Source of the DNA: a virus
Lineage: Duplodnaviria; Heunggongvirae; Uroviricota; Caudoviricetes
Length of the DNA: 38,853 nucleotides
IMG/VR virus record: IMGVR_UViG_2563366820_000006
Coordinates: 1-38,853 of that record
Direction: 5' to 3' (one strand)
Part shown: in pieces, positions 1,189-38,853 of the stretch
Layout: every line of letters starts with the position of its first letter
How positions within the stretch are numbered: position 1 is the first letter of the stretch
Position numbers and translations under genes: made by a program
The notes under the pieces: model-generated
Databases searched by the model: none
What the model saw: the letters and a program-made list of their open reading frames with translations, nothing else
Told to the model about the DNA's origin: nothing

Positions 1189-1218
1189 GAAGCCCGCAAA
1201 TTGCGGGCTTTTTTATTG
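1189..1218 (+). terminator. Rho-independent terminator-like hairpin downstream of ssrA
   Basis: AGCCCGCAA-tt-TTGCGGGCT stem followed by TTTTTTATT. Confidence 0.6.
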
Positions 1219-1269
1219 ATCAGTCAACAATAAACAGTAACCGAATGAGAATTTAATAAGGATATTCAT

Positions 1270-1767
1270 ATGGAAGCTACTGTGGATTCGATTGATTTTC
1301 TGATCCGTAGTGAAGATGATTTTCTAAACTTTCTGGAAGAAATGAAAGCCCGAGAGGGGCTTGATTCTAAAGAGTTTATTTTCCCTAACGTAAAGTTTGC
1401 AGGCTGGCCATCCTTAGACATAAATGTTAAAGGAGAGCGGTATCATTCATCAATTACATCAGCAATGTTGTTTGGTATGTCAATGCTCAACGAGGAGATA
1501 CAGCGGGCGTTTGCAACCATACGATACGGATCGCAGAATCTTCAACGCTTGACTAATGAAGACAAGCAACGACTTGATATAAATTTTAAAATTAGCGAAG
1601 GTTCTAGTGATGCGGAAGGCACCACTGACAAGATCATCAACGCAGTAACTGATTTTTTGCGAGATACTATGTCTGGACTGAACGGCTGGCAGAAAATGCT
1701 TGTTATAATCACAATGGTTGGCGCGCCAGCACATGTGGTTATCACTACATTTCAGAAAATGCCGTAA
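1270..1767 (+). CDS. Hypothetical protein (AT-rich cargo; possibly the N-terminal part of a frameshifted longer gene)
   Basis: 165-aa ORF with AAGGA Shine-Dalgarno about 9 nt upstream of ATG; low GC relative to flanking chromosomal and phage structural genes; no domain recognised. Confidence 0.6.
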   Translation: MEATVDSIDFLIRSEDDFLNFLEEMKAREGLDSKEFIFPNVKFAGWPSLDINVKGERYHSSITSAMLFGMSMLNEEIQRAFATIRYGSQNLQRLTNEDKQRLDINFKISEGSSDAEGTTDKIINAVTDFLRDTMSGLNGWQKMLVIITMVGAPAHVVITTFQKMP

Positions 1768-1925
1768 CAGAAAGACATGCAACTGATCGGCAGGTTGAAA
1801 TTGCGAAAACCACATCCGATGGCATAAACAAAGCCATAGAAGCAACATTAGATTATAAAATCTATGGGAAATCAGCGATTAGCGATAAAGTTACTAGTCA
1901 CGGACAAGCAGGTAAAAGTGCTTTA

Positions 1926-2300
1926 GTGAAGCAATTAGCTGCTGATCCTACTGTCGAAACCGTGACTTTAGGAAATGAGAAACTAACACGACAAGACCTA
2001 AATACCTACAACAGCCGACAATCTGTAGATAGAGAACGTAAAGAACGAACTGATATATTTTCCATCAAAGGTGTAACCAGAACAGGGCCAACAAATCAGG
2101 ATATTAATATTAACGTTGTTAGGGTCTCTAATGACGAATGCTTCACAATCAAAGCTTCAGCTGATGTTATCACCCAAGATGAGTTGACAGCTATTGTTGA
2201 CGCTTTGTCAAACAACTCTCATATTAAAATCAGTTACTTAGAGGTAATTGAAAAGGGTGCTGTTTCTATAGGTCAGTTCAACACTATTGTTTCAGAATAA
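1926..2300 (+). CDS. Hypothetical protein (frame is open upstream to about 1653 with no ATG; may be the C-terminal part of the 1270..1767 gene via a -1 shift)
   Basis: 124-aa ORF as tracked starts at GTG; the same frame runs stop-free and protein-like from 1653, overlapping the previous ORF by about 110 nt. Confidence 0.5.
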   Translation: MKQLAADPTVETVTLGNEKLTRQDLNTYNSRQSVDRERKERTDIFSIKGVTRTGPTNQDININVVRVSNDECFTIKASADVITQDELTAIVDALSNNSHIKISYLEVIEKGAVSIGQFNTIVSE

Positions 2301-2351
2301 TCACTTAACCCCATTTATGTAGGTTGAGGTTATAAGTCACGGAGACCAGAT

Positions 2352-2696
2352 ATGTCCTTAAAGTATGCACATGAAAAATTTCATACTGCAGTACTTACTC
2401 TTGCGGGCCATGGAAGTATTCAAGAACGCTTGATTAATTCGTATGTTTTTAGCCTTGGGCATCTTAAAACAGCCGATGATATTCCAAATGCCTTACAAAG
2501 CAGGTTCGATGAATTATGTAAGGAACTGACTAAGTTTGATGCCACTGGCGATGAGGGGCGAGTTCAAGCAACAGTATCAAAACTTAACGATTTCGAGATC
2601 AATAAACTGATCGAAGATATTGTCAGTCTTAACGAAGATATTTGCATGAAATTGGCTCTGACGGATGAGACTTACCAAGACATACACCAAAGTTAA
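2352..2696 (+). CDS. Hypothetical protein
   Basis: 114-aa ORF with GGAG Shine-Dalgarno 8 nt upstream; AT-rich; followed by a terminator. Confidence 0.6.
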   Translation: MSLKYAHEKFHTAVLTLAGHGSIQERLINSYVFSLGHLKTADDIPNALQSRFDELCKELTKFDATGDEGRVQATVSKLNDFEINKLIEDIVSLNEDICMKLALTDETYQDIHQS

Positions 2697-2723
2697 TTGA
2701 TTAAATTCAAAAAGTTAACGTTC

Positions 2724-2752
2724 AACCAGCCAGTTTTTGGCTGGTTTATTGT
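2724..2752 (+). terminator. Rho-independent terminator
   Basis: CCAGCC-agttttt-GGCTGG hairpin followed by TTTATTGTCTTAT. Confidence 0.6.
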
Positions 2753-2780
2753 CTTATAATATTCTTGCTCGAATGATGCA

Positions 2781-2993
2781 CTATTTATGATGTAATCCGG
2801 ACATCAGTTCATGGACAAGATTATCTCTTTCATTGTGTTGCAACCGTAAATGCATAGCAAAAAGGTGAGCACTATCCTCATTCCTCTTCAAGCCATGCTG
2901 TTCAAGATACCCGAAAAAACGGCTTCTCTTATCCGCTATTTCCTGAGTCTGACGTGCAACATTTACCAAATTTTCTAGCGTTTTTCTTGGCAT
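2781..2993 (-). CDS. Hypothetical small protein downstream of the invertase
   Basis: 70-aa ORF preceded by a near-consensus AGGAGG Shine-Dalgarno 8 nt upstream of ATG; function not recognised. Confidence 0.55.
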   Translation of the reverse strand: MPRKTLENLVNVARQTQEIADKRSRFFGYLEQHGLKRNEDSAHLFAMHLRLQHNERDNLVHELMSGLHHK

Positions 2994-3191
2994 ACTATTT
3001 CCTCCTGAAATTGTTGTAATTCACTAGGATATTCATTTTAATTTGTATCATTTAGTACCAAAACCGCTATCAATTAACAAAGCCATCGTTGTGGTTTACC
3101 TTGCAGCCGTTTTTTGTCATTGACTCTATGTGAAAATAATGAATCATCATGAGATTGGCTCACACGTTCTTGAATTCGACGAGCTGTGTCT

Positions 3192-8591: not shown

Positions 8592-9670
8592 CAGAACGGG
8601 TCCTCCTGTACTCTGGCTTTTTTCTTTTTCCGCGCGCCGGGGGCTTCGGGTTCAGGCAGATAAGCATCAGGTGGGCCGACACGGATTTCCGTCAGGGTGC
8701 CATTCTGGTCCTGAGTAAACGTGACTTCCGAGACAAGCAGTTCGGTATTGTCGAAACCACAGACCGGATCGAAGACAATCACCCGCTGGTTGGGCTGCCA
8801 CAGCGTACCGTTACCCTGTCGCCAGCCCTGCACCACATAGGTGGTTTCATCCGTCCGCGCCGCCCGTTGTCGGGCTTCAAAGTCAGCACGCGCAATACAG
8901 CCTGCCCCCGTAGCCTGCCCTGTCTGCCTGATATACATCGGACGATAACGGGCAATAAATGCATCCTCTGTGCGGGCCCGCAGCGCGGTGGTGGTGGCCT
9001 CACCGAAATCATCGTCGTTTCCGGCACGCTGCCCCGCCACCTGGTAAACTGAAAACCGCTCCCGGATACTCTTCTCCGTATCACAGGAAAGGATGTTTTC
9101 CCCAAGTACCAGCGCGGTATGTGCCCGCGTTGAGCCAATACCACCAATCACCAGCCTGCCGTGCGGGTCGTCATAAGCCAGCGCCTGCTGCTGACCGAGT
9201 ATTTTGTTGATCACCTCGATCACCGTTTCACCGTGATCAGGCTGGACATCCGGAATAACACCCGACGGCGCATTGCTGTTCACCACCTCAATGCCGAAAG
9301 GCGCAGCAAGCGCCTGCGCAATCTGTACCAGCGATCGTCCGTTAAACTGTGTCGGTTCGGCTGCACAGTCAATCAGGTCAGCAGTCAGACTACGTCCGGC
9401 AATACCGGTGCTGACCGAACGGGCATCGTAACGAACGGGGGTCGCCTCCACCCAGCCGGTGATCACCAGCTCATCACCAATCAGCACTTCCACTTTTGAA
9501 CCATTTTTAATGCGCGGCTGAAGCGTGGTGATACCCTCATCACCCGGCCACTGGCGGGTGATCTCCACGCTGAAATCCCGCGCCAGCCGTTCAATACCGG
9601 CACCGATGCGCACCGATGTCCAGCCATTCCACTCCCGGCCATTTACCCGTAGCGTGACATTGTCGTTCAT
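8591..9670 (-). CDS. Baseplate hub / tail protein (Mu gp44, gpD-like)
   Basis: 359 aa; position after the DNA-circulation gene in the Mu-like order. Confidence 0.7.
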   Translation of the reverse strand: MNDNVTLRVNGREWNGWTSVRIGAGIERLARDFSVEITRQWPGDEGITTLQPRIKNGSKVEVLIGDELVITGWVEATPVRYDARSVSTGIAGRSLTADLIDCAAEPTQFNGRSLVQIAQALAAPFGIEVVNSNAPSGVIPDVQPDHGETVIEVINKILGQQQALAYDDPHGRLVIGGIGSTRAHTALVLGENILSCDTEKSIRERFSVYQVAGQRAGNDDDFGEATTTALRARTEDAFIARYRPMYIRQTGQATGAGCIARADFEARQRAARTDETTYVVQGWRQGNGTLWQPNQRVIVFDPVCGFDNTELLVSEVTFTQDQNGTLTEIRVGPPDAYLPEPEAPGARKKKKARVQEDPF

Positions 9671-10995
9671 TGCACTGGCACCTTCAGAGGGATCACCGGC
9701 ACAAAGCCGGGATGCGTAATGGCATTACGCCGGATAATGTCCGCGTCACGCGCCGCGTTATCAAACCAGGTCGCCGCCAGCACCAGCGCGGGTAAAACCT
9801 CATCCGGTGTGCGCTGAATGATCCGTGCAGACTGTTCAAGGCGCGTGTTGATATCCGCATTCAGATCTGCTTTCACCCGGCGCAGCGCCAGAAACAGCGC
9901 ATCGCTGGTTGTACGGGACAACTCCTTATCAATTGCCGTATTCAGTGTGTCGCGAATGTCAGTCAGTTCTTCCCACGTCGGCAGGTCAACCGTGTTTTTC
10001 ACCGCCGGTGCATTGTTCAGTGCCGGATGCGTGACGGAAGGCCAGCCAGTGCTCTGCGCGGGTGTTGTTGCCTGCCCCACTGCGGAATTCTGCATCACCG
10101 CGGAAGTTGTTGGCGCAGGCAATCGGGTGACGGCATACGCCGCTTCGCTGATTGCGGTCGTACGAAGGGTGCTGGCAACCACGTTACGCTGCTGCGTCGC
10201 CGTGGCGGTGGTTTTACTGTCCGTTTTCCAGACGCCGCGCGGTTGCAGATCGCTGCCGAGGCTGACACCGGAAAGCGTTTTGATCATGGTGACCAGGTCG
10301 CTGGCGTTACCATAAAGGCGTTTCCCGGTACGCCACATTTTCTGCACCTGCTCAACGAAATTTTTGCCTGACGATGGCGGCGGCAGAAGTACCGAGATAT
10401 CCCCCTGCAACAGCCTGGCGGCATCCGATACGGCAGAATCCACCACTTTCATCGCATTAGAAACATACCCCAGCATTATGCTGGCATTACCGATAACGTC
10501 GTTCTGCACGAAATCCGCCACACCATCGATACTGAAACCGCTGAAGCTGTCACTGATGCAGTCATCCAGTGCAGAACAGGATGACATCAGCGTCTGCGCC
10601 GTCGCCGCACCTGATGTGGGGTAAGAGAGTTCTCCTGCTTCGACAAACTTCAGGTCAAAGCGGACAATACGCCCTTCACTTTTCGATGTGCTGACCCGAA
10701 CTTCCCCGTCAACACAGACTTTCAGCTCACCGTATGTCGGATGGACAAGCGTGCCGGGACCGGGTTTATTCAGCGCGTCAATCAGGCGATCGCGCTGGTC
10801 AAAGCAGTCATCTCCCACCACATAAGCCGTGATGGACGGGCGGAAAGTGACTTTTCCCAGATCTTCGGTATAGGGTTTGTCGCGGTTCGGGTATTCGTGC
10901 GTTTCCACACGGCGACCTGTTCCCGCACTTTCTTCTTCGACCTTAAACGGCACGCCGCGAAATGACGCGTCCTGAAGCCTGTCTTTCCACGTCAT
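9667..10995 (-). CDS. Mu-like DNA circulation protein (gp43 family)
   Basis: 442 aa; N-terminus MTWKDRLQDASFRGVPFKVEEESAGTGRRVETHEYPNRDKPYTEDLG matches the DNA_circ_N family; GGAG Shine-Dalgarno. Confidence 0.8.
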   Translation of the reverse strand: MTWKDRLQDASFRGVPFKVEEESAGTGRRVETHEYPNRDKPYTEDLGKVTFRPSITAYVVGDDCFDQRDRLIDALNKPGPGTLVHPTYGELKVCVDGEVRVSTSKSEGRIVRFDLKFVEAGELSYPTSGAATAQTLMSSCSALDDCISDSFSGFSIDGVADFVQNDVIGNASIMLGYVSNAMKVVDSAVSDAARLLQGDISVLLPPPSSGKNFVEQVQKMWRTGKRLYGNASDLVTMIKTLSGVSLGSDLQPRGVWKTDSKTTATATQQRNVVASTLRTTAISEAAYAVTRLPAPTTSAVMQNSAVGQATTPAQSTGWPSVTHPALNNAPAVKNTVDLPTWEELTDIRDTLNTAIDKELSRTTSDALFLALRRVKADLNADINTRLEQSARIIQRTPDEVLPALVLAATWFDNAARDADIIRRNAITHPGFVPVIPLKVPVQ

Positions 10996-11007
10996 ATATA
11001 CTCCGAA

Positions 11008-11038
11008 AATTAAAAAGCCACCTATTAGAAGGTGGCCT
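11008..11038 (-). terminator. Rho-independent terminator of the moron gene
   Basis: On the minus strand: GCCACC-loop-GGTGGC hairpin followed by TTTTTAATTTT, immediately after the stop of the 176-aa ORF. Confidence 0.6.
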
Positions 11039-11056
11039 TGTAATGAATTTTATTAA

Positions 11057-11587
11057 TTAGCGAGTCAGAAACAACGAATCTTTATACTTTTGCTGTTGTT
11101 CATTTAAATACTTAGCTGTTTCATCGCTGGCAAATGGAAATATTACCGTATTTTTAGGCATGGTAATTTCTTTTTTGTCCAGCGTCAGAGTAAACATAGG
11201 AACATACTGAGCAGAGTAACGCACCGCAGAAACGAGCTCTAGTTTAGACTCTTCAATAACACTTAAATTATCCAGGCTAACTTTCTCTTCATCTTTTTTC
11301 TTTGACGCATTTAAAGTTTTTATTACTTTATTTAATTTCTCCTGAAAATCCTCCTTAAAGTTTTCAGGATTGCCGTCGACAACAAGAATCTGTTCACCCT
11401 GATTATCTGGAAAAATAATCTTTGCACTTATCAATTTATTTTCTTTATAAACATCACCAAGTTTTATGGCTCCTCCAGATAACTGAATAATATGTTCATC
11501 TTTAAAGGAGATGTTGCCAGAGATTATGAGAGATGAAAAAACAGCCGCTGCTCCAAGAATTACACTTGCTGTGATATAGCCTTTCAT
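11057..11587 (-). CDS. Secreted protein of unknown function (moron inserted in the tail operon)
   Basis: 176 aa; N-terminal signal-peptide-like hydrophobic segment MKGYITASVILGAAAVFSSLIISG; strongly AT-rich versus flanking tail genes; own upstream intergenic region and own terminator. Confidence 0.7.
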   Translation of the reverse strand: MKGYITASVILGAAAVFSSLIISGNISFKDEHIIQLSGGAIKLGDVYKENKLISAKIIFPDNQGEQILVVDGNPENFKEDFQEKLNKVIKTLNASKKKDEEKVSLDNLSVIEESKLELVSAVRYSAQYVPMFTLTLDKKEITMPKNTVIFPFASDETAKYLNEQQQKYKDSLFLTR

Positions 11588-11678
11588 TTTTCGCCTATTA
11601 ACATTTTTCTAAATGTGCATTAATTCTATCACTCTATTTATGACTTACAACCAGCAATACCTGTGAGGGGAATCCTGG

Positions 11679-13511
11679 CTACCAAAATCGGGTATAGCCA
11701 ACATCGTGATTTATATCAATGCCACTGGAGCGTGTTTCCGTAACCCGCATACCTGGTGGCATATTTATAAATGATACCTTGATCTCACCATCAACTTTTG
11801 GCGCAGAAGCTTTGTTAATCATGAAGGGATTCGGGCCTGTGGCATCGGAGGCGTTGTTTGACTGAGCCGGATCTACCGCCTGATAAGGTGTGTATCCCCG
11901 TGCCGGTATTCCCGTCCCATAAGCATCATAAGCACCCGCGCCCCACTGCGCCGAGTTAATGGTATCGACCGTGTCACAGGAACTGTCGGTAAACCATTCA
12001 ATAATCGGCTTCAGCTTATCCCACATATCCTGAAACCACTTAACAACCGGTCCCCAGTTATTGATCACCATCCCCAGCGGCGACCAGGCAAAAACCTTCT
12101 TCAGAAGTTCCCGGCCAGCCTCAAAATAAGGACCAATGGTTTCCCAGAGCTTCTTGAAATAAGGTCCGACAACATCCCAGTTAGTGATAATTAATCCCGC
12201 AGCCAGAGCAATCGCCGTCGCAATCATGCCAATCGGCGTCATCGACATGATCCTGCTGACAATACTGATGGCACTGCCCACGCCCATCAATCCCAGTTTC
12301 AGAATCGCAAGACCGGCAGCAAGCCCGACGACGCCGCGAATAACCCGGGGATTTTCATCCGCAAACTTCGTGAATTTCTCCCCCAACTCCCCCAGCCATT
12401 GTGTGATATTTTTAGCGTCACCAGAAAATGCGCCGCCAATAGCCGCAAGGCCGTTAGTTGCGGTCCCTGTCATTGCCTCCCACAGGTTGGACAGCGTACC
12501 AAGCTGTGCCTGAACACGTTTATTCAGGCTGGCCTGTTTATTCATCTTCTGCTGGATCTGATCGTAGCCATCCTTTCCTTTATCGATCAGTGCATTGACC
12601 ACCTGAAGGGTTTCGGCATCATCACCAAATATTGCCTTAAGTACACCTGTTCGCTTAACGTCGGTCAGTTTTCGCAGCTTTGCCAGTTGCCTGAACATGT
12701 TATCAAGACCGCCAAAACTTCCTTTGCCGTCAGTAAAATCGAGCTGTACCCCGAGTTTCTGGCGGGCCATAACTTTATTAACGTCCCTGATTTTCTTAAC
12801 GCTTAATCCGGACTGGATAACTTTTCGCAGGGCATTACCTGCCGACTCCCCGTTCATCCCCATCTGATCCATCATGACGCTGATGGGGGCAAGGCTCTGT
12901 GCAGCCTGAAGACCATCCTTGTTCACCATCTTCAGAACAGAACTGGTTTTAGTGAAGAAGGACAACATGTTGGTATCGTCAACGCCCAGATAAAACGCCT
13001 TCTGGATAGTGTCGAACAGCCCCATCATGTCTTCTGACGCCGTTCCGGTAGCATCCTGCATCTTTGCAGCAAACTCAGCAGCCGCTTCCGGTGTTTTTTT
13101 CAGTTGTACCGCAAGATAAGCTGTCGCTTTACCCACACCGCCAAGAATGTTTTCTGCCGGGATCCCCTGACGCACCAGCATCTGCATCATGTTCTGGAAA
13201 TCAGCCGTTGTACCGGGTAGCTGGTTACCCAGACCAATAGCCAGTTTATTGATGTCCTGAAAGCGCTTTCCGACCTCACCGTTCGCATCCATCATGGCAA
13301 CTTTCAGCCCGGTGGCGGCGTTTTCCTGATCGGCATAAGATTTCAGGGAAAGCGTCAGACCCGCAGCCAGTCCGCCACCAAGCGCCAGCCCACCCTGTGA
13401 CGCTTCTTCCGCCTGGCGTTTAAATCCCCGGATTTTCTTTTGTATTTTCGACAGCGCGGGAGAAAGCCTGTCGACACCGGTGATCAACGCCTTAAGCTCA
13501 AATTCAGCCAT
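11679..13511 (-). CDS. Tail tape measure protein
   Basis: 610 aa, Ala/Gly-rich with a hydrophobic central segment, located downstream of the tail-chaperone frameshift pair. Confidence 0.85.
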   Translation of the reverse strand: MAEFELKALITGVDRLSPALSKIQKKIRGFKRQAEEASQGGLALGGGLAAGLTLSLKSYADQENAATGLKVAMMDANGEVGKRFQDINKLAIGLGNQLPGTTADFQNMMQMLVRQGIPAENILGGVGKATAYLAVQLKKTPEAAAEFAAKMQDATGTASEDMMGLFDTIQKAFYLGVDDTNMLSFFTKTSSVLKMVNKDGLQAAQSLAPISVMMDQMGMNGESAGNALRKVIQSGLSVKKIRDVNKVMARQKLGVQLDFTDGKGSFGGLDNMFRQLAKLRKLTDVKRTGVLKAIFGDDAETLQVVNALIDKGKDGYDQIQQKMNKQASLNKRVQAQLGTLSNLWEAMTGTATNGLAAIGGAFSGDAKNITQWLGELGEKFTKFADENPRVIRGVVGLAAGLAILKLGLMGVGSAISIVSRIMSMTPIGMIATAIALAAGLIITNWDVVGPYFKKLWETIGPYFEAGRELLKKVFAWSPLGMVINNWGPVVKWFQDMWDKLKPIIEWFTDSSCDTVDTINSAQWGAGAYDAYGTGIPARGYTPYQAVDPAQSNNASDATGPNPFMINKASAPKVDGEIKVSFINMPPGMRVTETRSSGIDINHDVGYTRFW

Positions 13512-25761: not shown

Positions 25762-26778
25762 ATGTACAATTTGGATGTATCAAAAAAAGAAATCGGTAGA
25801 GTCGGTGATCGGCTCGCATCATTAGCAGAGAGTAATCAAACCCTCCCAGAGAGCGATCTTAATATTTTGCACTCGTGGAGAATGCTACATCTATATCCTT
25901 TAACTAAGCTCACTGAATATTTAACTAGAGAAGCAAATTCAATAAATCAAAATTGTTTAATATCATCAAGAATTAAACGACTCCCATCTATAATATCAAA
26001 ACTTCAACGTTTTGAAGATATGAAGCTAAACAAAATGCAGGATTTGGGGGGGTGTAGAGCTATACTTAGCAATCTTGATGAAGTATATAATACATATGAT
26101 AATATTAAAAAATTAAAATTTAAGCATCAAATAGTCAGAACAGATGATTACATTAAACAAGTAAAAGACTCTGGATATAGAAGTTTACATTTAGTTTATT
26201 CTTTTCAGAATGAGAAGCATGTTAATTTAAATGGGTTAAAAATCGAAATTCAACTCAGAACAGCTATACAACACAGTTGGGCTACTGCGGTTGAAATGGT
26301 TGGCCTTTTTAGGAAAGAATCTCTAAAATCTAGTTTTGGAGATCCTGATTGGTTACGTTTCTTTGAGCTAGTGTCAGAGTTATTTTATGGCATAGAATCA
26401 GGGAAATCCGTTGGTCATTATATGAAAACATCCAGTGACCTAAAAATATTAACAGAAAAACTCAACGTATTCACAATACTTGAAGCCTACAACAAAGTAG
26501 CAAGCCACATTGATTCCTCTGATACATACACCTCGGGTTTTTGCGTTATAATAGTCGATACAGAAAAGCGCAAAATGAATATAAAAAGTTTTCCTGTCCA
26601 TAGCCATAAAGCAGCATCTGATTTTTATATAAAAGAAGAAAAAAATTGTGAAGGGATAAAAGGATATGAGGTAGCCATGGTATCAGTTGATGATATATCA
26701 AATTTAAAAAATGCGTACCCTGCATTCTTCCTAGACACAAAAACATTCTTAAATAACCTGAGTAGATTTATTTTCTAA
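25762..26778 (+). CDS. RelA/SpoT-homologue (RSH) synthetase-domain protein; CapRel-like fused toxSAS toxin-antitoxin candidate
   Basis: 338 aa with the ordered RelA/SpoT synthetase motifs SRIKRLPSIISKL, DLGGCRAIL, GYRSLHLVY and EIQLRTAIQHSWA; about 150 aa C-terminal extension; no adjacent small ORF; AT-rich; opposite strand to the flanking Q and lysis genes. Confidence 0.8.
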   Translation: MYNLDVSKKEIGRVGDRLASLAESNQTLPESDLNILHSWRMLHLYPLTKLTEYLTREANSINQNCLISSRIKRLPSIISKLQRFEDMKLNKMQDLGGCRAILSNLDEVYNTYDNIKKLKFKHQIVRTDDYIKQVKDSGYRSLHLVYSFQNEKHVNLNGLKIEIQLRTAIQHSWATAVEMVGLFRKESLKSSFGDPDWLRFFELVSELFYGIESGKSVGHYMKTSSDLKILTEKLNVFTILEAYNKVASHIDSSDTYTSGFCVIIVDTEKRKMNIKSFPVHSHKAASDFYIKEEKNCEGIKGYEVAMVSVDDISNLKNAYPAFFLDTKTFLNNLSRFIF

Positions 26779-26833: not shown

Positions 26834-27187
26834 TCACACTGCGTGAATTATTGATAAAACACCCTCAACAAATCCCATTGCAGTTTGCAGTTCCTTCCTA
26901 ATTGTGCCATCTGAACATTTCCGCTTCCTTGCGATTGTACGGAGTGAAATACCGATAACAAAGTGAGCGATGATCAGCTCATACTCTTCTGGTTTATATT
27001 TACGCAACCGAGCCACACAACTGTCTATCATAATGCCTTCGTCATCATCACACTGAATCCGGGACTTTTTGCCATGAGGTAAAAGCCCCTTGAAGCCAGC
27101 GGCTACCGGTTGCCAATCCACACCACTGTTCTCTGCCGCAGCCCACGCTCCCCAACGGTCTAATACTTCATACATATCACGCATCAA
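26834..27187 (-). CDS. Late-gene antiterminator Q (QuuD/YbcQ-like)
   Basis: 117 aa; MRDMYEVLDRWGAWAA .. AAGFKGL .. CDDDEGIMID .. ARLRKYKPEE closely follows the DLP12 QuuD pattern. Confidence 0.8.
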   Translation of the reverse strand: MMRDMYEVLDRWGAWAAAENSGVDWQPVAAGFKGLLPHGKKSRIQCDDDEGIMIDSCVARLRKYKPEEYELIIAHFVIGISLRTIARKRKCSDGTIRKELQTAMGFVEGVLSIIHAV

Positions 27188-37061: not shown

Positions 37062-37079
37062 TCCAAGCATGAAACTATT

Positions 37080-37103
37080 GGCCACAATTTGTGGCCATTT
37101 TAC
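37080..37103 (+). terminator. Hairpin / terminator-like element after int
   Basis: Perfect palindrome GGCCACAA-t-TTGTGGCC followed by ATTTTAC. Confidence 0.45.
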
Positions 37104-37119
37104 GGAGCAAGATAGAAAC

Positions 37120-38853
37120 ATGGCAAATCAAATTACCAAACTAAAAAATATAAATGTTGTGAAGTTTCGCGGACTGAAAAATATAAACATCGAGTTTGGT
37201 TCTCGCCTAACTGTTATTTGTGGTAAAAATGGCACATCTAAATCCACAATTCTTGGCATTATCGCCCAAATATTTAGCTTTACAAAGGACTTTACCAAAA
37301 ACCCTGAGACTGATTTAACACAATATAAAACATTAACAAATGGCAGCTTCAAGTCAGCTTTCAGCGAACATTTTAGGCTTTCAGAACAATTTGATGTTCC
37401 TGGTTCAATGGACGTCAAAATTAGTGTCTATGATGGTGCATCGAACAAACATCTTGAAAAACTAACATTAGGTTTATACAGCTACAGTGACAGAGATAAA
37501 TCAAGGCCTGTAGTCAGGGGAAATGATTCAATACCGGAAAAAAACCAAAGTAGAAACGTTACTCATCCTGTTATTTTTTTAAGCTTAGCACGACTTCTTC
37601 CTATTACATTAAGGACTGATTACTCAACACGGGATGTTCAGTACATCAATGAAAATTCTGATGAAATCAGAATGATGAGTAACCAACTCTTACTAAAAAA
37701 CAATGGAAGCTCAGTAACAGCAACAAAAGGTACTATCGATTCAATGGTTGTCCATGGTGACAATTATGATCACCAATCAGTATCTGTTGGTGAAGATAAT
37801 GTTGGACAATTAATCCAAGCAATTTTTTCATTTAAAAGATTGAAGGAAACTTATTCTGATTATCATGGCGGAATATTGTTAATTGATGAAGCCGATGCAG
37901 GTCTTTTCCCTGCTGCACAGTTAGAGCTAATTAATATTCTAACTAAAGCAGCAAAACAATACGATCTGCAAATAATCATGACCTCGCACTCTCCATTAAT
38001 AATAGAGGATATCTATAATCGTTCAAAACAAGATAGTGATAGCTTTAAAACAATATATCTTACAGACACATATGGAGATATTAAAACAAAGAATAATCTT
38101 TCATGGACAGATATCCACGCTGATTTACATGTTGAAACTGTAAAAATTAATGATGACATTTGTCTTCCAAAGGCAAATGTATATTTTGAAGACAAAGAAG
38201 GTTTCGACTTTTTCAAACAATTGATAACAGATCGTAAAATAAATAAAATATTAAATCCATTAGGGAATATAAATATTAGCTGCTCTGCCATGCTTGACTT
38301 AATGGCAAGAAAAATACCAGAATTTACAGCTAAAAGCTTGATCGTCTTAGACGGTGATGTTGTTCACGACAATAGTGCTAATGCAAAAAAAGCCAAAAAA
38401 GAAAAAAACTTATGTTTGCTTCCAAGCACCTTACCTCCAGACCAAATGATTTTTGAGTTTTTATATAATTTACCACCTGATGATGCATATTGGGAAAATA
38501 AAAATAAATTTACAAAAGCTGTTTTTATGAAAACAGCTAAAGACATAATTGCAACGCTAAAGATTGGTAACGCTCCGATTGATTTAAAAATCCTTATAGA
38601 TAATTATAAAAAAGTTAACAAAAACCATGGCGGGATAGTTAGAAAACTGTTTAAAGATTTTGCACATACGACTCAATTTCAGGCCCAAGTAAAAGGGCGA
38701 GTTAAAGATAACCCATATCGATATTGGGTCGAGAAAAATCCTGTGCAATCGGATAGCTTCAAGAATGAACTAATAAAGAGTCTTAAAGTTATTATGACAA
38801 GTGGACATGGTGTCGATTCTGCTACCATCTCATCATATCTGTCAGATAACTAA
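37120..38853 (+). CDS. ABC-type ATPase fused to a C-terminal TOPRIM-like domain (OLD-family-like; P2 Old / PARIS-like defence candidate)
   Basis: Start taken at MANQITKLKNINVVKF (tracked ORF starts at 37069). Walker A GKNGTSKST; Walker B ILLIDEADAGL; H-loop-like MTSHSP; C-terminal acidic motifs YFEDKEG and LIVLDGD about 45 aa apart. AT-rich; ends at the window edge. Confidence 0.75.
   Translation: MANQITKLKNINVVKFRGLKNINIEFGSRLTVICGKNGTSKSTILGIIAQIFSFTKDFTKNPETDLTQYKTLTNGSFKSAFSEHFRLSEQFDVPGSMDVKISVYDGASNKHLEKLTLGLYSYSDRDKSRPVVRGNDSIPEKNQSRNVTHPVIFLSLARLLPITLRTDYSTRDVQYINENSDEIRMMSNQLLLKNNGSSVTATKGTIDSMVVHGDNYDHQSVSVGEDNVGQLIQAIFSFKRLKETYSDYHGGILLIDEADAGLFPAAQLELINILTKAAKQYDLQIIMTSHSPLIIEDIYNRSKQDSDSFKTIYLTDTYGDIKTKNNLSWTDIHADLHVETVKINDDICLPKANVYFEDKEGFDFFKQLITDRKINKILNPLGNINISCSAMLDLMARKIPEFTAKSLIVLDGDVVHDNSANAKKAKKEKNLCLLPSTLPPDQMIFEFLYNLPPDDAYWENKNKFTKAVFMKTAKDIIATLKIGNAPIDLKILIDNYKKVNKNHGGIVRKLFKDFAHTTQFQAQVKGRVKDNPYRYWVEKNPVQSDSFKNELIKSLKVIMTSGHGVDSATISSYLSDN

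What the first reader, a model, noticed from the sequence alone, without database searches (positions are those of the whole stretch)
11008..11678. Secreted-protein moron inside the Mu-like tail operon
A 176-aa ORF with a signal-peptide-like N-terminus (MKGYITASVILGAAAVFSSLIISG) and markedly AT-rich composition is inserted between the tape measure and DNA-circulation genes. It has its own upstream intergenic region and a minus-strand terminator (GCCACC/GGTGGC hairpin plus T-tract) directly after its stop. Exported morons in structural operons are commonly lysogenic-conversion, superinfection-exclusion or receptor-masking factors; the function here is unknown.
Basis: partly seen in the sequence, partly recalled or inferred. 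Interest (0 to 1): 0.5.

Follow-up and report, generated by a model that had tools for sequence, protein, structure and literature searches.

The report
Membrane-anchored moron beside tape-measure gene
An AT-rich accessory gene cassette sits between two tail genes of an SfV-like E. coli prophage and encodes a membrane-tethered periplasmic protein of an uncharacterised family. It is dispensable for the tail and most likely protects the lysogen at the cell envelope, probably against other phages, but this has not been tested.

Summary
ORF 11057-11587 (-), 176 aa and 34.5% GC, lies between the tape-measure gene (51% GC) and the DNA-circularization gene (57% GC). It has a promoter-like motif upstream and a hairpin plus T-run downstream.

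The prophage is SfV-like, with an HK97-type head, a Mu-type tail and a Q antiterminator. The infectious phages SfV, SfII, SfI and SfIV have an empty junction here, so the gene is not a tail part. Sister E. coli prophages carry at least five other cargos in the same slot, and five of the six cargo types have export signals. One of them matches a PHROG annotated as Sie-like.

The protein belongs to a family of about 175-aa proteins (77 clusters at 50% identity) in Enterobacterales and Aeromonas. It stays AT-rich and recurs beside tape-measure genes in four unrelated tail modules. A Lelliottia prophage remnant has kept it alone.

Best reading: a moron in a cargo hotspot, probably encoding a superinfection-exclusion-type envelope protein. 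It parallels HK97 gp15 in layout but is not homologous to it. The function is inferred, not shown.

The parts
11007..11678 (-). Whole accessory cassette (moron): everything between the tape-measure stop codon and the ribosome-binding site of the DNA-circularization gene
   Evidence: The 683-bp spacer is 34.1% GC. The same junction is 24-60 bp in SfV, SfIV and L004. Phage tail regions are otherwise 97-98% identical.
11057..11587 (-). 176-aa ORF, member of PHROG 5485 (function unknown): a membrane-anchored periplasmic protein
   Evidence: The family has 77 clusters at 50% identity. Across 75 copies and 26 alleles there are 14 synonymous and 10 non-synonymous changes (ratio ~0.19) and no internal stops.
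11519..11584 (-). Codons 2-23: N-terminal hydrophobic helix, read as a signal anchor with the N-terminus inside
   Evidence: AlphaFold helix 2-23. KD19 maximum 2.09 and a 26-residue uncharged run after K2. 55 of 58 family members have K or R before the hydrophobic run. There is no Cys, so no lipobox.
11060..11518 (-). Codons 24-176: periplasmic alpha/beta domain, with conserved motifs G39-x4-LG-x2-Y-x-E49 and V-x-Y124-x-S-E-x2-P
11623..11650 (-). Sigma-70 promoter-like motif TTGTAA-16 nt-TGaTAGAAT (extended -10)
   Evidence: It lies in the cassette's own 91-bp upstream spacer. Not verified, and not statistically enriched.
11592..11596 (-). Weak Shine-Dalgarno-like AGGCG, 4 nt before the ATG
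   Evidence: Read directly from the sequence.
11014..11039 (-). Intrinsic-terminator-like hairpin (GGCCACC-loop-GGTGGC) followed by TTTTTAATTTT
   Evidence: -17 kcal/mol. Equivalent hairpins with different sequences follow every cargo and also the empty junction.
10993..11005 (-). Ribosome-binding site (CGGAG) and ATG of the DNA-circularization gene, where backbone homology resumes
   Evidence: CGGAGT(A/T)TATATG is shared by the window, L001, L003 and L004.
11679..13511 (-). Upstream neighbour: tail tape-measure protein (610 aa)
   Evidence: PF10145 E=5e-27; PHROG tape-measure families.
9667..10995 (-). Downstream neighbour: DNA-circularization / baseplate-hub protein (442 aa, Mu gp43-like)
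   Evidence: PF07157 E=3e-34; phrog_184 baseplate hub.
26834..27187 (-). Context: Q-type late antiterminator, which would let late transcription read through the cassette's terminator
   Evidence: PF06530 E=1.2e-45. Read-through itself is inferred from lambda Q biology.

Best explanation
The segment 11007-11678 is a self-contained accessory cassette (a 'moron') with a promoter-like spacer, one gene and a terminator. It occupies a cargo hotspot at the junction between the tape-measure and baseplate-hub genes of an SfV-like temperate myovirus integrated in E. coli.

Its product is inserted into the inner membrane by an N-terminal signal-anchor helix and displays a ~150-residue alpha/beta domain in the periplasm. 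The domain shows no conserved catalytic-type residues, so it probably acts by binding.

The most likely role is envelope-level superinfection exclusion. Expressed from the prophage, the tethered domain would interfere with the step at which an incoming phage tail crosses the periplasm and inner membrane, for example tape-measure or hub insertion, peptidoglycan digestion or channel formation. DNA would then not enter, while outer-membrane receptors stay unblocked.

During lytic growth, the Q-antiterminated late transcript would read through the cassette's terminator, so tail gene expression is not interrupted.

What is shown:
- the cassette anatomy;
- dispensability for the virion;
- hotspot behaviour;
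- a real, constrained protein family;
- the periplasmic-facing, membrane-tethered architecture.

What is inferred:
- promoter activity in the lysogen;
- read-through by Q;
- the exclusion function and its target.
For: **Moron and hotspot**
- The junction is empty in SfV, SfII, SfI, SfIV and some E. coli prophages.
- The same slot holds other cargos:
  - a bPH_1 protein;
  - a TM plus OB-fold protein;
  - two different signal-peptide proteins;
  - a lipoprotein.
- All these slots are 31-40% GC.
- 175 of 5426 complete E. coli genomes carry this cargo, out of 525 that have the flanking sequences.

**Real, constrained gene**
- 77 clusters of uniform ~175-aa length.
- A crude non-synonymous/synonymous ratio of ~0.19 with no internal stops.
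- A co-evolution-driven AlphaFold model with pLDDT 91.5.

**Periplasmic, tethered domain**
- TM helix 2-23 and charge bias consistent with the N-terminus inside.
- A remote homologue of the same fold has a lipobox (LLTG|C) in place of the helix. Foldseek gives E=2.5e-6 and TM-score 0.55/0.65; hhalign gives E=4.6e-5 over 124 columns.

**Phage-versus-phage role**
- The sister cargo TM plus OB-fold matches phrog_8545 'superinfection exclusion Sie-like' (E=1.5e-49).
- Five of six cargo types are envelope proteins.
- The family recurs within three genes of tape-measure genes in four unrelated tail modules.
- The remote homologue sits in a strictly lytic phage, where host-virulence cargo is not expected but exclusion proteins are known (T5 Llp, T4 Imm and Sp; my knowledge).
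- A Lelliottia chromosome has kept only the last 41 tape-measure codons, this gene and its terminator. That suggests a benefit independent of virion production.
- HK97 gp15, the original moron, has the same layout next to a tape-measure gene and is an inner-membrane exclusion protein (PMC3594210).

**Read-through**
- A Q antiterminator is present.
Against: - There are no experimental or expression data, so the function rests on context and analogy.
- There is no sequence, profile or fold similarity to any characterised exclusion protein or defence system:
  - Pfam, NCBIfam and PADLOC give no hits;
  - hhalign against gp15 gives 0.2% probability;
- The promoter motif is not statistically distinguishable from chance in AT-rich DNA. 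DNA at 34% GC is a likely H-NS target (my knowledge), so the gene may be silent in the lysogen.
- The gene is co-oriented with the late operon, so it could be mainly a late gene.
- It is not tied to a particular tape-measure allele. Leclercia carriers have tape measures 36% and 77% identical to the window's. This weakens any idea of a cognate pairing between tape measure and blocker.
- The recurrence beside tape-measure genes may only reflect a permissive operon junction.
- The PHROG 'Sie-like' label on the sister cargo is an annotation, not a tested function.
Confidence: 0.5

Rival explanations
1. The gene is a lysogenic-conversion or host-fitness factor that does not act against phages. The tethered periplasmic protein would change envelope properties, such as serum or bile resistance, adhesion or stress tolerance, in the manner of lambda Bor or Lom.
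For: - It is an envelope location encoded by a prophage of commensal and pathogenic E. coli from gut, poultry and urine sources.
- It is retained in a decayed prophage remnant.
- Other slot cargos include an outer-membrane-type lipoprotein.
- PMC3594210 lists such roles for morons.
Against: - A remote homologue occurs in a strictly lytic Pseudomonas phage, where a host-virulence role is not expected.
- The family is found almost only inside tail modules of phages from several genera.
- The sister cargo is annotated as Sie-like.
- Neither point excludes this rival.
Confidence: 0.17
2. The gene acts mainly in the lytic cycle and is expressed with the tail genes. It would prevent progeny or co-infecting phages from injecting into the already infected or lysing cell, or protect the envelope until lysis. 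This is late exclusion or anti-'suicide' adsorption, as with T5 Llp.
For: - It has the same orientation as the late operon and lies inside it, so Q-dependent read-through transcription necessarily includes it.
- The homologue is in a lytic phage.
- The promoter motif is unproven.
Against: - The cassette has its own spacer with an extended -10 motif.
- The gene is kept intact in a Lelliottia remnant that has no late promoter or late genes.
- This rival overlaps with the best explanation: the activity is the same and only the timing differs.
Confidence: 0.15
3. The gene is an orphan immunity protein against periplasm-acting toxins, such as colicins, type VI peptidoglycan or membrane effectors, or tailocins, carried by the phage as cargo.
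For: It is a small, AT-rich, membrane-tethered periplasmic binding-type protein with no catalytic motif. Such immunity genes are often mobile (my knowledge).
Against: - No effector or toxin gene is adjacent in any of the contexts examined.
- There is no Pfam, NCBIfam or PADLOC match to known immunity families.
- The context is consistently a phage tail module.
Confidence: 0.08
4. The gene is a conserved tail or baseplate assembly component of this phage lineage, retained at a fixed position.
For: Homologues sit in exactly the same slot in Leclercia and Edwardsiella prophages, and within baseplate clusters of other myoviruses.
Against: - SfV, SfII, SfI and SfIV were isolated as infectious phages, have 97-98% identical tail genes, and lack the gene (PMC3851460).
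- Unrelated genes, one of them on the opposite strand, replace it in sister prophages.
- It diverges faster (41-55% identity) than sheath, tube and gpP (75-89%).
- A membrane anchor is not expected in a cytoplasmically assembled tail.
- A copy exists with no phage genes around it.
Confidence: 0.03

Closest known systems
HK97 gp15 moron (inner-membrane superinfection-exclusion protein; Cumby et al. 2012, reviewed in PMC3594210)
   Same: - Both are one-gene cassettes inside a tail operon directly beside the tape-measure gene.
- Both are AT-rich.
- Both have an N-terminal hydrophobic helix.
- In both, a hairpin plus T-run lies ~10-15 nt before the next tail gene's ribosome-binding site (compared).
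- Relatives of HK97 lack gp15 (PMC3594210).
   Different: - There is no homology: hhalign probability is 0.2%.
- gp15 is 62 aa and belongs to the YebO-like family, while this protein is 176 aa with a folded periplasmic domain.
- gp15 lies upstream of the tape-measure gene and this gene lies downstream.
- gp15's function was tested experimentally; this one's was not.
phrog_8545 'superinfection exclusion Sie-like' TM plus OB-fold (PF12869) protein, which occupies the same slot in sister E. coli prophages
   Same: - It sits in the identical genomic slot.
- It is AT-rich.
- It has a single N-terminal TM helix followed by a small extracytoplasmic domain.
   Different: - Its fold (OB) and sequence are unrelated.
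- It is encoded on the opposite strand.
- The Sie label is a database annotation that I could not trace to an experiment.
Lipoprotein of lytic Pseudomonas phage ventosus (UniProt A0A2H4P829; MG018930 51995-52429)
   Same: It has the same predicted fold (Foldseek E=2.5e-6, probability 1.00) and weak profile similarity across the whole domain (hhalign E=4.6e-5). It is also membrane-tethered and extracytoplasmic.
   Different: - It has a lipobox (LLTG|C) instead of a TM helix.
- It is 144 aa.
- It lies among early or middle genes of a 97-kb virulent phage, not in a tail operon.
- Its function is also unknown.
T4 Imm and Sp, T5 Llp, phi80/N15 Cor, P22 SieA (phage-encoded envelope proteins that block entry; my knowledge, plus PMC3594210 and PMC10883804)
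   Same: All are small phage-encoded membrane or lipid-anchored proteins acting at the envelope. Llp and Cor are genetically linked to the tail or receptor-binding genes of the phage that carries them.
   Different: There is no sequence or family match: Pfam, PHROG, PADLOC and NCBIfam give none. The mechanism and target here are unknown.
Lambda Bor and Lom (morons in late regions that alter host surface properties)
   Same: They are exported products of late-region morons expressed from the prophage (PMC3594210).
   Different: They are outer-membrane proteins with virulence-type phenotypes. There is no similarity to them.

Membership tests
Moron (Juhala/Hendrix definition, as restated in PMC3594210) | Present in some genomes and absent from close relatives, between otherwise conserved neighbouring genes | tested here: met
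   SfV, SfII, SfI, SfIV and L004 have a 24-60 bp junction, compared with 683 bp here. The flanks are 97-98% identical.
Moron (Juhala/Hendrix definition, as restated in PMC3594210) | Base composition differs from the surrounding genes | tested here: met
   34.5% GC (GC3 30%) against 51-57% for the neighbours. The same holds for homologues in other hosts.
Moron (Juhala/Hendrix definition, as restated in PMC3594210) | Own terminator | tested here: met
   Hairpin plus T-run at 11039->11014, -17 kcal/mol. Caveat: a hairpin plus T-run also occupies this position at empty junctions.
Moron (Juhala/Hendrix definition, as restated in PMC3594210) | Own promoter | tested here: inconclusive
   TTGTAA-16-TGaTAGAAT at 11650->11623. 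The motif count in the region is not above the shuffled expectation, and there are no transcript data.
Moron (Juhala/Hendrix definition, as restated in PMC3594210) | Expressed from the repressed prophage | not testable with these tools
   Needs RNA-seq or 5'-RACE on a lysogen.
HK97 gp15 / YebO-like exclusion proteins | Sequence or profile similarity to gp15 | tested here: not met
   hhalign of the 58-sequence family profile against gp15 gives probability 0.2%. There is no Pfam family at E<=0.01.
Known anti-phage defence systems (PADLOC-DB 2.0) | Match to any defence-protein model | tested here: not met
   0 families at E<=0.1.
Phage tail structural or assembly protein | Present in all infectious members of the tail lineage | tested here: not met
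   Absent from SfV, SfII, SfI and SfIV. Replaced by unrelated genes in sister prophages.
Secreted protein with a cleaved Sec signal peptide | Short hydrophobic region (7-15 residues) followed by a small-x-small cleavage site conserved in homologues | tested here: inconclusive
   The uncharged run is 26 residues and KD19 is 2.09. ISG|N is possible here, but most homologues have D or N at -1. No SignalP-type predictor was available. An anchor is favoured, but cleavage is not excluded.
Bacterial lipoprotein | Lipobox with Cys at the end of the signal sequence | tested here: not met
   There is no Cys in residues 1-30. The remote ventosus homologue does have LLTG|C.
PHROG 5485 | Full-length match to the family profile | tested here: met
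   E=4.3e-108 over residues 1-176 of 176. The family is annotated 'unknown function'.

The most novel reading that the evidence does not exclude
The junction between the tape-measure and baseplate-hub genes of SfV-like (and other) temperate myoviruses would be a dedicated hotspot for interchangeable envelope-acting anti-phage proteins. This ~175-aa family would be a new, widespread class of periplasmic superinfection-exclusion protein with a fold absent from the PDB. It would be tethered by either a TM helix or a lipid, and would intercept the tape-measure/hub complex of incoming tails. It would be genetically linked to the injection machinery in the way Llp and Cor are linked to receptor-binding genes.
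Probability: 0.3. Interest if true: 0.6.

Novelty: new member of a known kind. Interest (0 to 1): 0.42.

Why it matters
Tail-operon morons that encode envelope proteins are a known kind of element, and HK97 gp15 is the founding example. Very few have an assigned mechanism.

This work defines three things that can be tested directly:
- a protein family with 77 clusters at 50% identity, a confident model and no solved relative;
- a clear topology prediction for that family;
- a compact hotspot in a common E. coli and Shigella prophage lineage, present in about 10% of complete E. coli genomes, whose six cargo types are almost all exported.

If these cargos are entry blockers, the slot would be a ready source of new superinfection-exclusion proteins. 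It would also matter for phage-therapy host-range prediction, because lysogens would resist phages at the injection step without any receptor change. If the gene is not an entry blocker, it is an ordinary moron of unknown function.

Tried and rejected
- **Protein family searches.** Pfam, NCBIfam and PADLOC scans of the protein and of all 58 family members gave nothing meaningful.
- **PDB sequence search.** Only chance hits at E>0.4.
- **afdb50 library.** Unavailable.
- **tblastn against 50,697 isolated phage genomes.** No hits with the window protein or with two distant members. The family is known only from prophages and metagenomes, apart from the remote ventosus homologue.
- **Species-representative genome scan.** One locus only, in Edwardsiella.
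- **Distant-member alignments.** Two were too divergent for the locus finder.
- **Transposon-like insertion.** Rejected, because no flanking direct or inverted repeats were found.
- **Known RNA element.** Rejected. The only Rfam hits were sub-threshold leader-peptide matches caused by the hairpin plus T-run.
- **Cognate coupling to one tape-measure allele.** Rejected, because carriers have very different tape measures.
- **Recent foreign arrival.** Rejected, because AT-richness is maintained across 41-58% identical homologues in the same slot.
- **Literature.** Searches for the protein accession WP_001560827 and for a described hotspot at this junction found nothing in the held library.
- **One dubious family member.** P0091 (L018, 56% GC, unclear context) may be a false member and was not used.
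Full report

Yes. The minus strand carries a 176-aa ORF at 11057-11587 that begins MKGYITASVILGAAAVFSSLIISG.
- The ORF is 34.5% GC (GC3 29.9%) and its two spacers are 29.5% and 35.2%.
- The upstream gene is 51.1% GC and the downstream gene 56.6%.
- Pfam identifies the neighbours as a tape-measure protein (PF10145, 11679-13511) and a Mu gp43-like DNA-circularization/baseplate-hub protein (PF07157, 9667-10995). Tube, chaperone, sheath and gpP/gp44 genes lie around them.
- A consensus scan finds an extended -10 promoter-like motif (TTGTAA-16-TGaTAGAAT) at 11650->11623 in the 91-bp spacer, and a hairpin plus T-run at 11039->11014 (-17 kcal/mol).
- The promoter motif is supported only by its position. 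Three such motifs in 5 kb is not more than the shuffles give (4.1 +/- 2.1).

**2. What is the element it sits in?**

The window is a complete temperate phage.
- It has an integrase, an S24 repressor, RusA, a Q antiterminator (PF06530, 26834-27187), a holin, an HK97-type head and a Mu-type contractile tail.
- Its tail region is 97-98% identical to the Shigella and E. coli phages SfV, SfII, SfI, SfIV, SKA5 and others.
- The flanks of the finding occur in 525 of 5426 complete E. coli genomes. 175 of those carry this insert at 98-100% identity.

**3. Presence, absence and replacement**

SfV, SfII and SfI match the 5.5-kb query in a span about 620 bp shorter, and SfIV in one about 540 bp shorter.
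- The annotated records show tape measure directly followed by the DNA-circulation gene in SfV and SfIV.
- Some E. coli prophages are also empty.
- These phages were isolated as infectious particles (PMC3851460 for SfIV), so the gene is not needed to build a tail.

Other prophages hold different single genes in the same slot:

| Cargo | Export signal | Locus |
|---|---|---|
| 176-aa protein (this finding) | N-terminal TM helix | window |
| 125-aa bPH_1 protein | none | L001 |
| 148-aa tRNA_anti-like OB-fold protein, opposite strand | N-terminal TM helix | L024 (a truncated copy in L002) |
| 164/170-aa protein | Sec-type signal peptide | L003, phage SKA5 |
| 162-aa protein | signal peptide | phage vB_EcoM-720R4 |
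| 225-aa protein | lipobox LLGG\|C | L106 |

- All filled slots are 31-40% GC.
- Five of the six cargo types therefore carry export signals. With a generous 30% background this gives p~0.01 (my arithmetic, small n).
- The OB-fold cargo matches phrog_8545, annotated 'superinfection exclusion Sie-like' (E=1.5e-49). The other cargos match PHROGs of unknown function.

**4. Junction anatomy**

Aligning the junctions shows that backbone homology ends at the tape-measure stop codon and resumes at CGGAGT(A/T)TATATG, the ribosome-binding site and start of the DNA-circulation gene.
- Each co-oriented cargo ends in its own hairpin plus T-run, each with a different sequence, ~10-20 nt before that ribosome-binding site.
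- Empty junctions of the SfV type have one too (TCCCAC-TCCG-GTGGGA-T6). A terminator at this position is thus a property of the backbone and of every cassette, not special to this one.
- A terminator in the middle of a tail operon is tolerable because the phage has a lambda-type Q antiterminator. Read-through is inferred from lambda biology.
- No flanking repeats suggest transposition, and no Rfam family reaches threshold.

**5. The protein**

Sequence searches
- Pfam, NCBIfam, PADLOC and PDB sequence searches find nothing. PHROG 5485 (unknown function) matches end to end.
- A word-indexed search found only close relatives: E. coli, and 52-58% identical proteins in Leclercia and Lelliottia.
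- An exhaustive profile search found 77 clusters at 50% identity, nearly all 170-180 aa. Named members come from Edwardsiella and Aeromonas.
- The 58-sequence alignment shows a hydrophobic N-terminus and two conserved motifs: N-I-I-x3-G-x-V-[KR]-L-G-x-V-Y-x-E, and V-x-Y-x-S-E-x2-P-x-F-x-L. G44 and Y124 are invariant. No catalytic-looking His, Cys, Ser or Asp set is conserved.

Selective constraint
- Among 75 E. coli and IMG/VR copies (26 alleles) there are 14 synonymous and 10 mostly conservative non-synonymous changes over 111 and 417 sites. The ratio is ~0.19, and there are no internal stops.

Structure
- AlphaFold with 14 sequences was poor (pLDDT 59.6).
- With 58 sequences it was confident (pLDDT 91.5, pTM 0.76). 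It gives helix 2-23, a beta-hairpin and long strands (33-72), helix 74-93, two long strands (114-143) and helix 149-171.
- Foldseek against viral models gives one significant hit, a 144-aa 'lipoprotein' of the virulent Pseudomonas phage ventosus (E=2.5e-6, probability 1.00, TM-score 0.55/0.65).
- I located that gene (MG018930 51995-52429). It starts MKRLLFLGITALLLTG|C. hhalign aligns it to the family profile over 124 columns (E=4.6e-5, probability 68%).

Topology
- The same domain carried on a lipid anchor in one phage and on a hydrophobic helix in the others argues strongly that it works outside the cytoplasm while tethered to a membrane.
- Charge bias also fits an N-in/C-out orientation. K or R precedes the helix in 55 of 58 members, and the net charge after it is -0.7.
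- Whether the helix is cleaved cannot be settled here. Its length (26 uncharged residues, KD19 2.09) and the D or N at the would-be -1 position in most homologues favour an anchor.

**6. Where else the family occurs**

| Context | Position of the gene |
|---|---|
| Leclercia, Edwardsiella and metagenomic SfV-like prophages | same slot, tape measure -> X -> DNA_circ |
| E217-like tail module (L110) | directly after a 723-aa SLT-domain tape-measure-like protein and before a Dit-like gene |
| Pam3/E217-like module (L016, L017, L111) | between the hub and spike genes, three genes after the tape measure |
| L023 | convergent with a TMP_3 tape-measure gene |
| L022 | chromosomal, beside dctPQM at a contig end |

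- In the SfV-like relatives it is 41-55% identical to the window protein, while sheath, tube and gpP are 75-89% identical, DNA-circ is 68%, and the mosaic tape measure is 33-77%.
- In these prophage and chromosomal contexts the gene is 33-40% GC, against 45-56% flanks, and the phage copies have their own terminator.
- In Lelliottia amnigena the gene stands alone next to icd. Homology to the phage covers only the last 41 tape-measure codons, the gene and its terminator. This is a prophage remnant in which only this gene survives intact.

**7. Most likely mechanism, and how sure**

The moron and hotspot reading is well supported (I put it at ~0.9), as is the tethered periplasmic topology (~0.8). 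The function is an inference. I favour envelope-level superinfection exclusion (~0.45-0.5) for these reasons:
- (a) the location and topology match those of the known entry blockers (gp15, Imm, Sp, SieA, Llp, Cor; PMC3594210, PMC10883804 and my knowledge);
- (b) the slot's other cargos are almost all envelope proteins, and one is annotated Sie-like;
- (c) a homologue in a virulent phage argues for a phage-related role rather than a host-virulence role;
- (d) survival in a decayed prophage argues for a benefit to the cell;
- (e) the family repeatedly sits beside the genes for the injection machinery.

Points against:
- there are no data on expression or phenotype;
- there is no similarity to any characterised exclusion protein;
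- the promoter is unproven, and AT-rich DNA is likely to be bound by H-NS;
- there is no link to a particular tape-measure allele;
- the position beside tape-measure genes may only mark a permissive junction.

The rivals (host-fitness factor, late-acting function, toxin immunity, tail component) are scored in the report sections. The tail-component rival is effectively excluded.

**8. Comparison with what is known**

The closest analogue in layout is HK97 gp15, the first moron.
- In the HK97 record it is a 62-aa protein with an N-terminal hydrophobic helix, placed between the tail chaperone and tape-measure genes.
- It is followed by CCCGC-loop-GCGGG-T8 and then the tape-measure ribosome-binding site.
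- It is reported to be an inner-membrane exclusion protein (PMC3594210).

The cassette logic is the same, but there is no homology (hhalign probability 0.2%), and the sizes and domains differ. This is therefore a new family in a known category, not a member of the gp15/YebO family.

I found no paper in the held library that describes this protein or this hotspot. That is not proof that none exists.

**9. Verdict**

The finding is real and correctly interpreted, and it is of moderate interest. It is an ordinary kind of element (a tail-operon moron), but it has three features worth following up:
- a well-defined hotspot whose cargo is rich in exported proteins;
- an uncharacterised, confidently modelled fold with no solved relative;
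- a recurrent association with tape-measure genes that suggests a testable entry-blocking function.

Noticed in passing
window 25762-26778 (+): A 338-aa RelA_SpoT-domain protein (PF04607) matches the PADLOC candidate defence family PDC-S33 (E=1.9e-114). It lies on a 33% GC island between the Q antiterminator and the holin, encoded antisense to the late genes. It looks like a toxSAS/CapRel-like defence moron at the classic Q-lysis slot.
   Followed up: partly
window 37069-38853 (+), runs off the window end: An AT-rich (31-36% GC) gene begins 8 bp after the integrase stop codon. It encodes an AAA/ABC-type ATPase that matches PtuA, GajA and AriA-type defence models (best E=3.7e-20). It is probably a defence gene at the prophage or island border.
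   Followed up: partly
window 1201-3000: Another AT-rich stretch (38-40% GC) carries three plus-strand ORFs (1270-1767, 1926-2300, 2352-2696), opposite to the tail genes. They have no PADLOC match. This may be a further accessory island near the tail-fibre end.
   Followed up: partly
L013 (SfV) 2012-2056; L004 2597-2656: Even the empty tape-measure/DNA-circ junction carries a hairpin plus T-run (TCCCAC-TCCG-GTGGGA-TTTTTT, about -14 kcal/mol) just before the DNA-circ ribosome-binding site. This is an intra-operon terminator or attenuator between the tail-tube/tape-measure block and the baseplate block.
   Followed up: partly
L009 5806-6582 (Lelliottia amnigena chromosome, next to icd): This is a prophage remnant reduced to the last 41 codons of a tape-measure gene, an intact homologue of the 176-aa gene and its terminator. 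No other phage genes lie within 6 kb.
   Followed up: yes
L002 1624-2010 compared with L024 506-952: In strain MZ1211 the OB-fold 'Sie-like' cargo has lost its start codon and TM helix through a ~140-bp deletion. RefSeq annotates it with a non-canonical start. It is probably a decayed copy.
   Followed up: partly
L109 2585-3119: In strain GCUET01 an IS4-like IS421 transposase sits where the tape-measure gene should be, next to the 225-aa lipoprotein cargo. The prophage is disrupted at this junction.
   Followed up: no
L005/L010 8012-9820: The Leclercia-type relatives carry two extra genes (about 503-507 aa and 94 aa, no Pfam hit) between the DNA-circ and gpP genes. These are absent from the window, so this is a second variable point in the baseplate block.
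   Followed up: no
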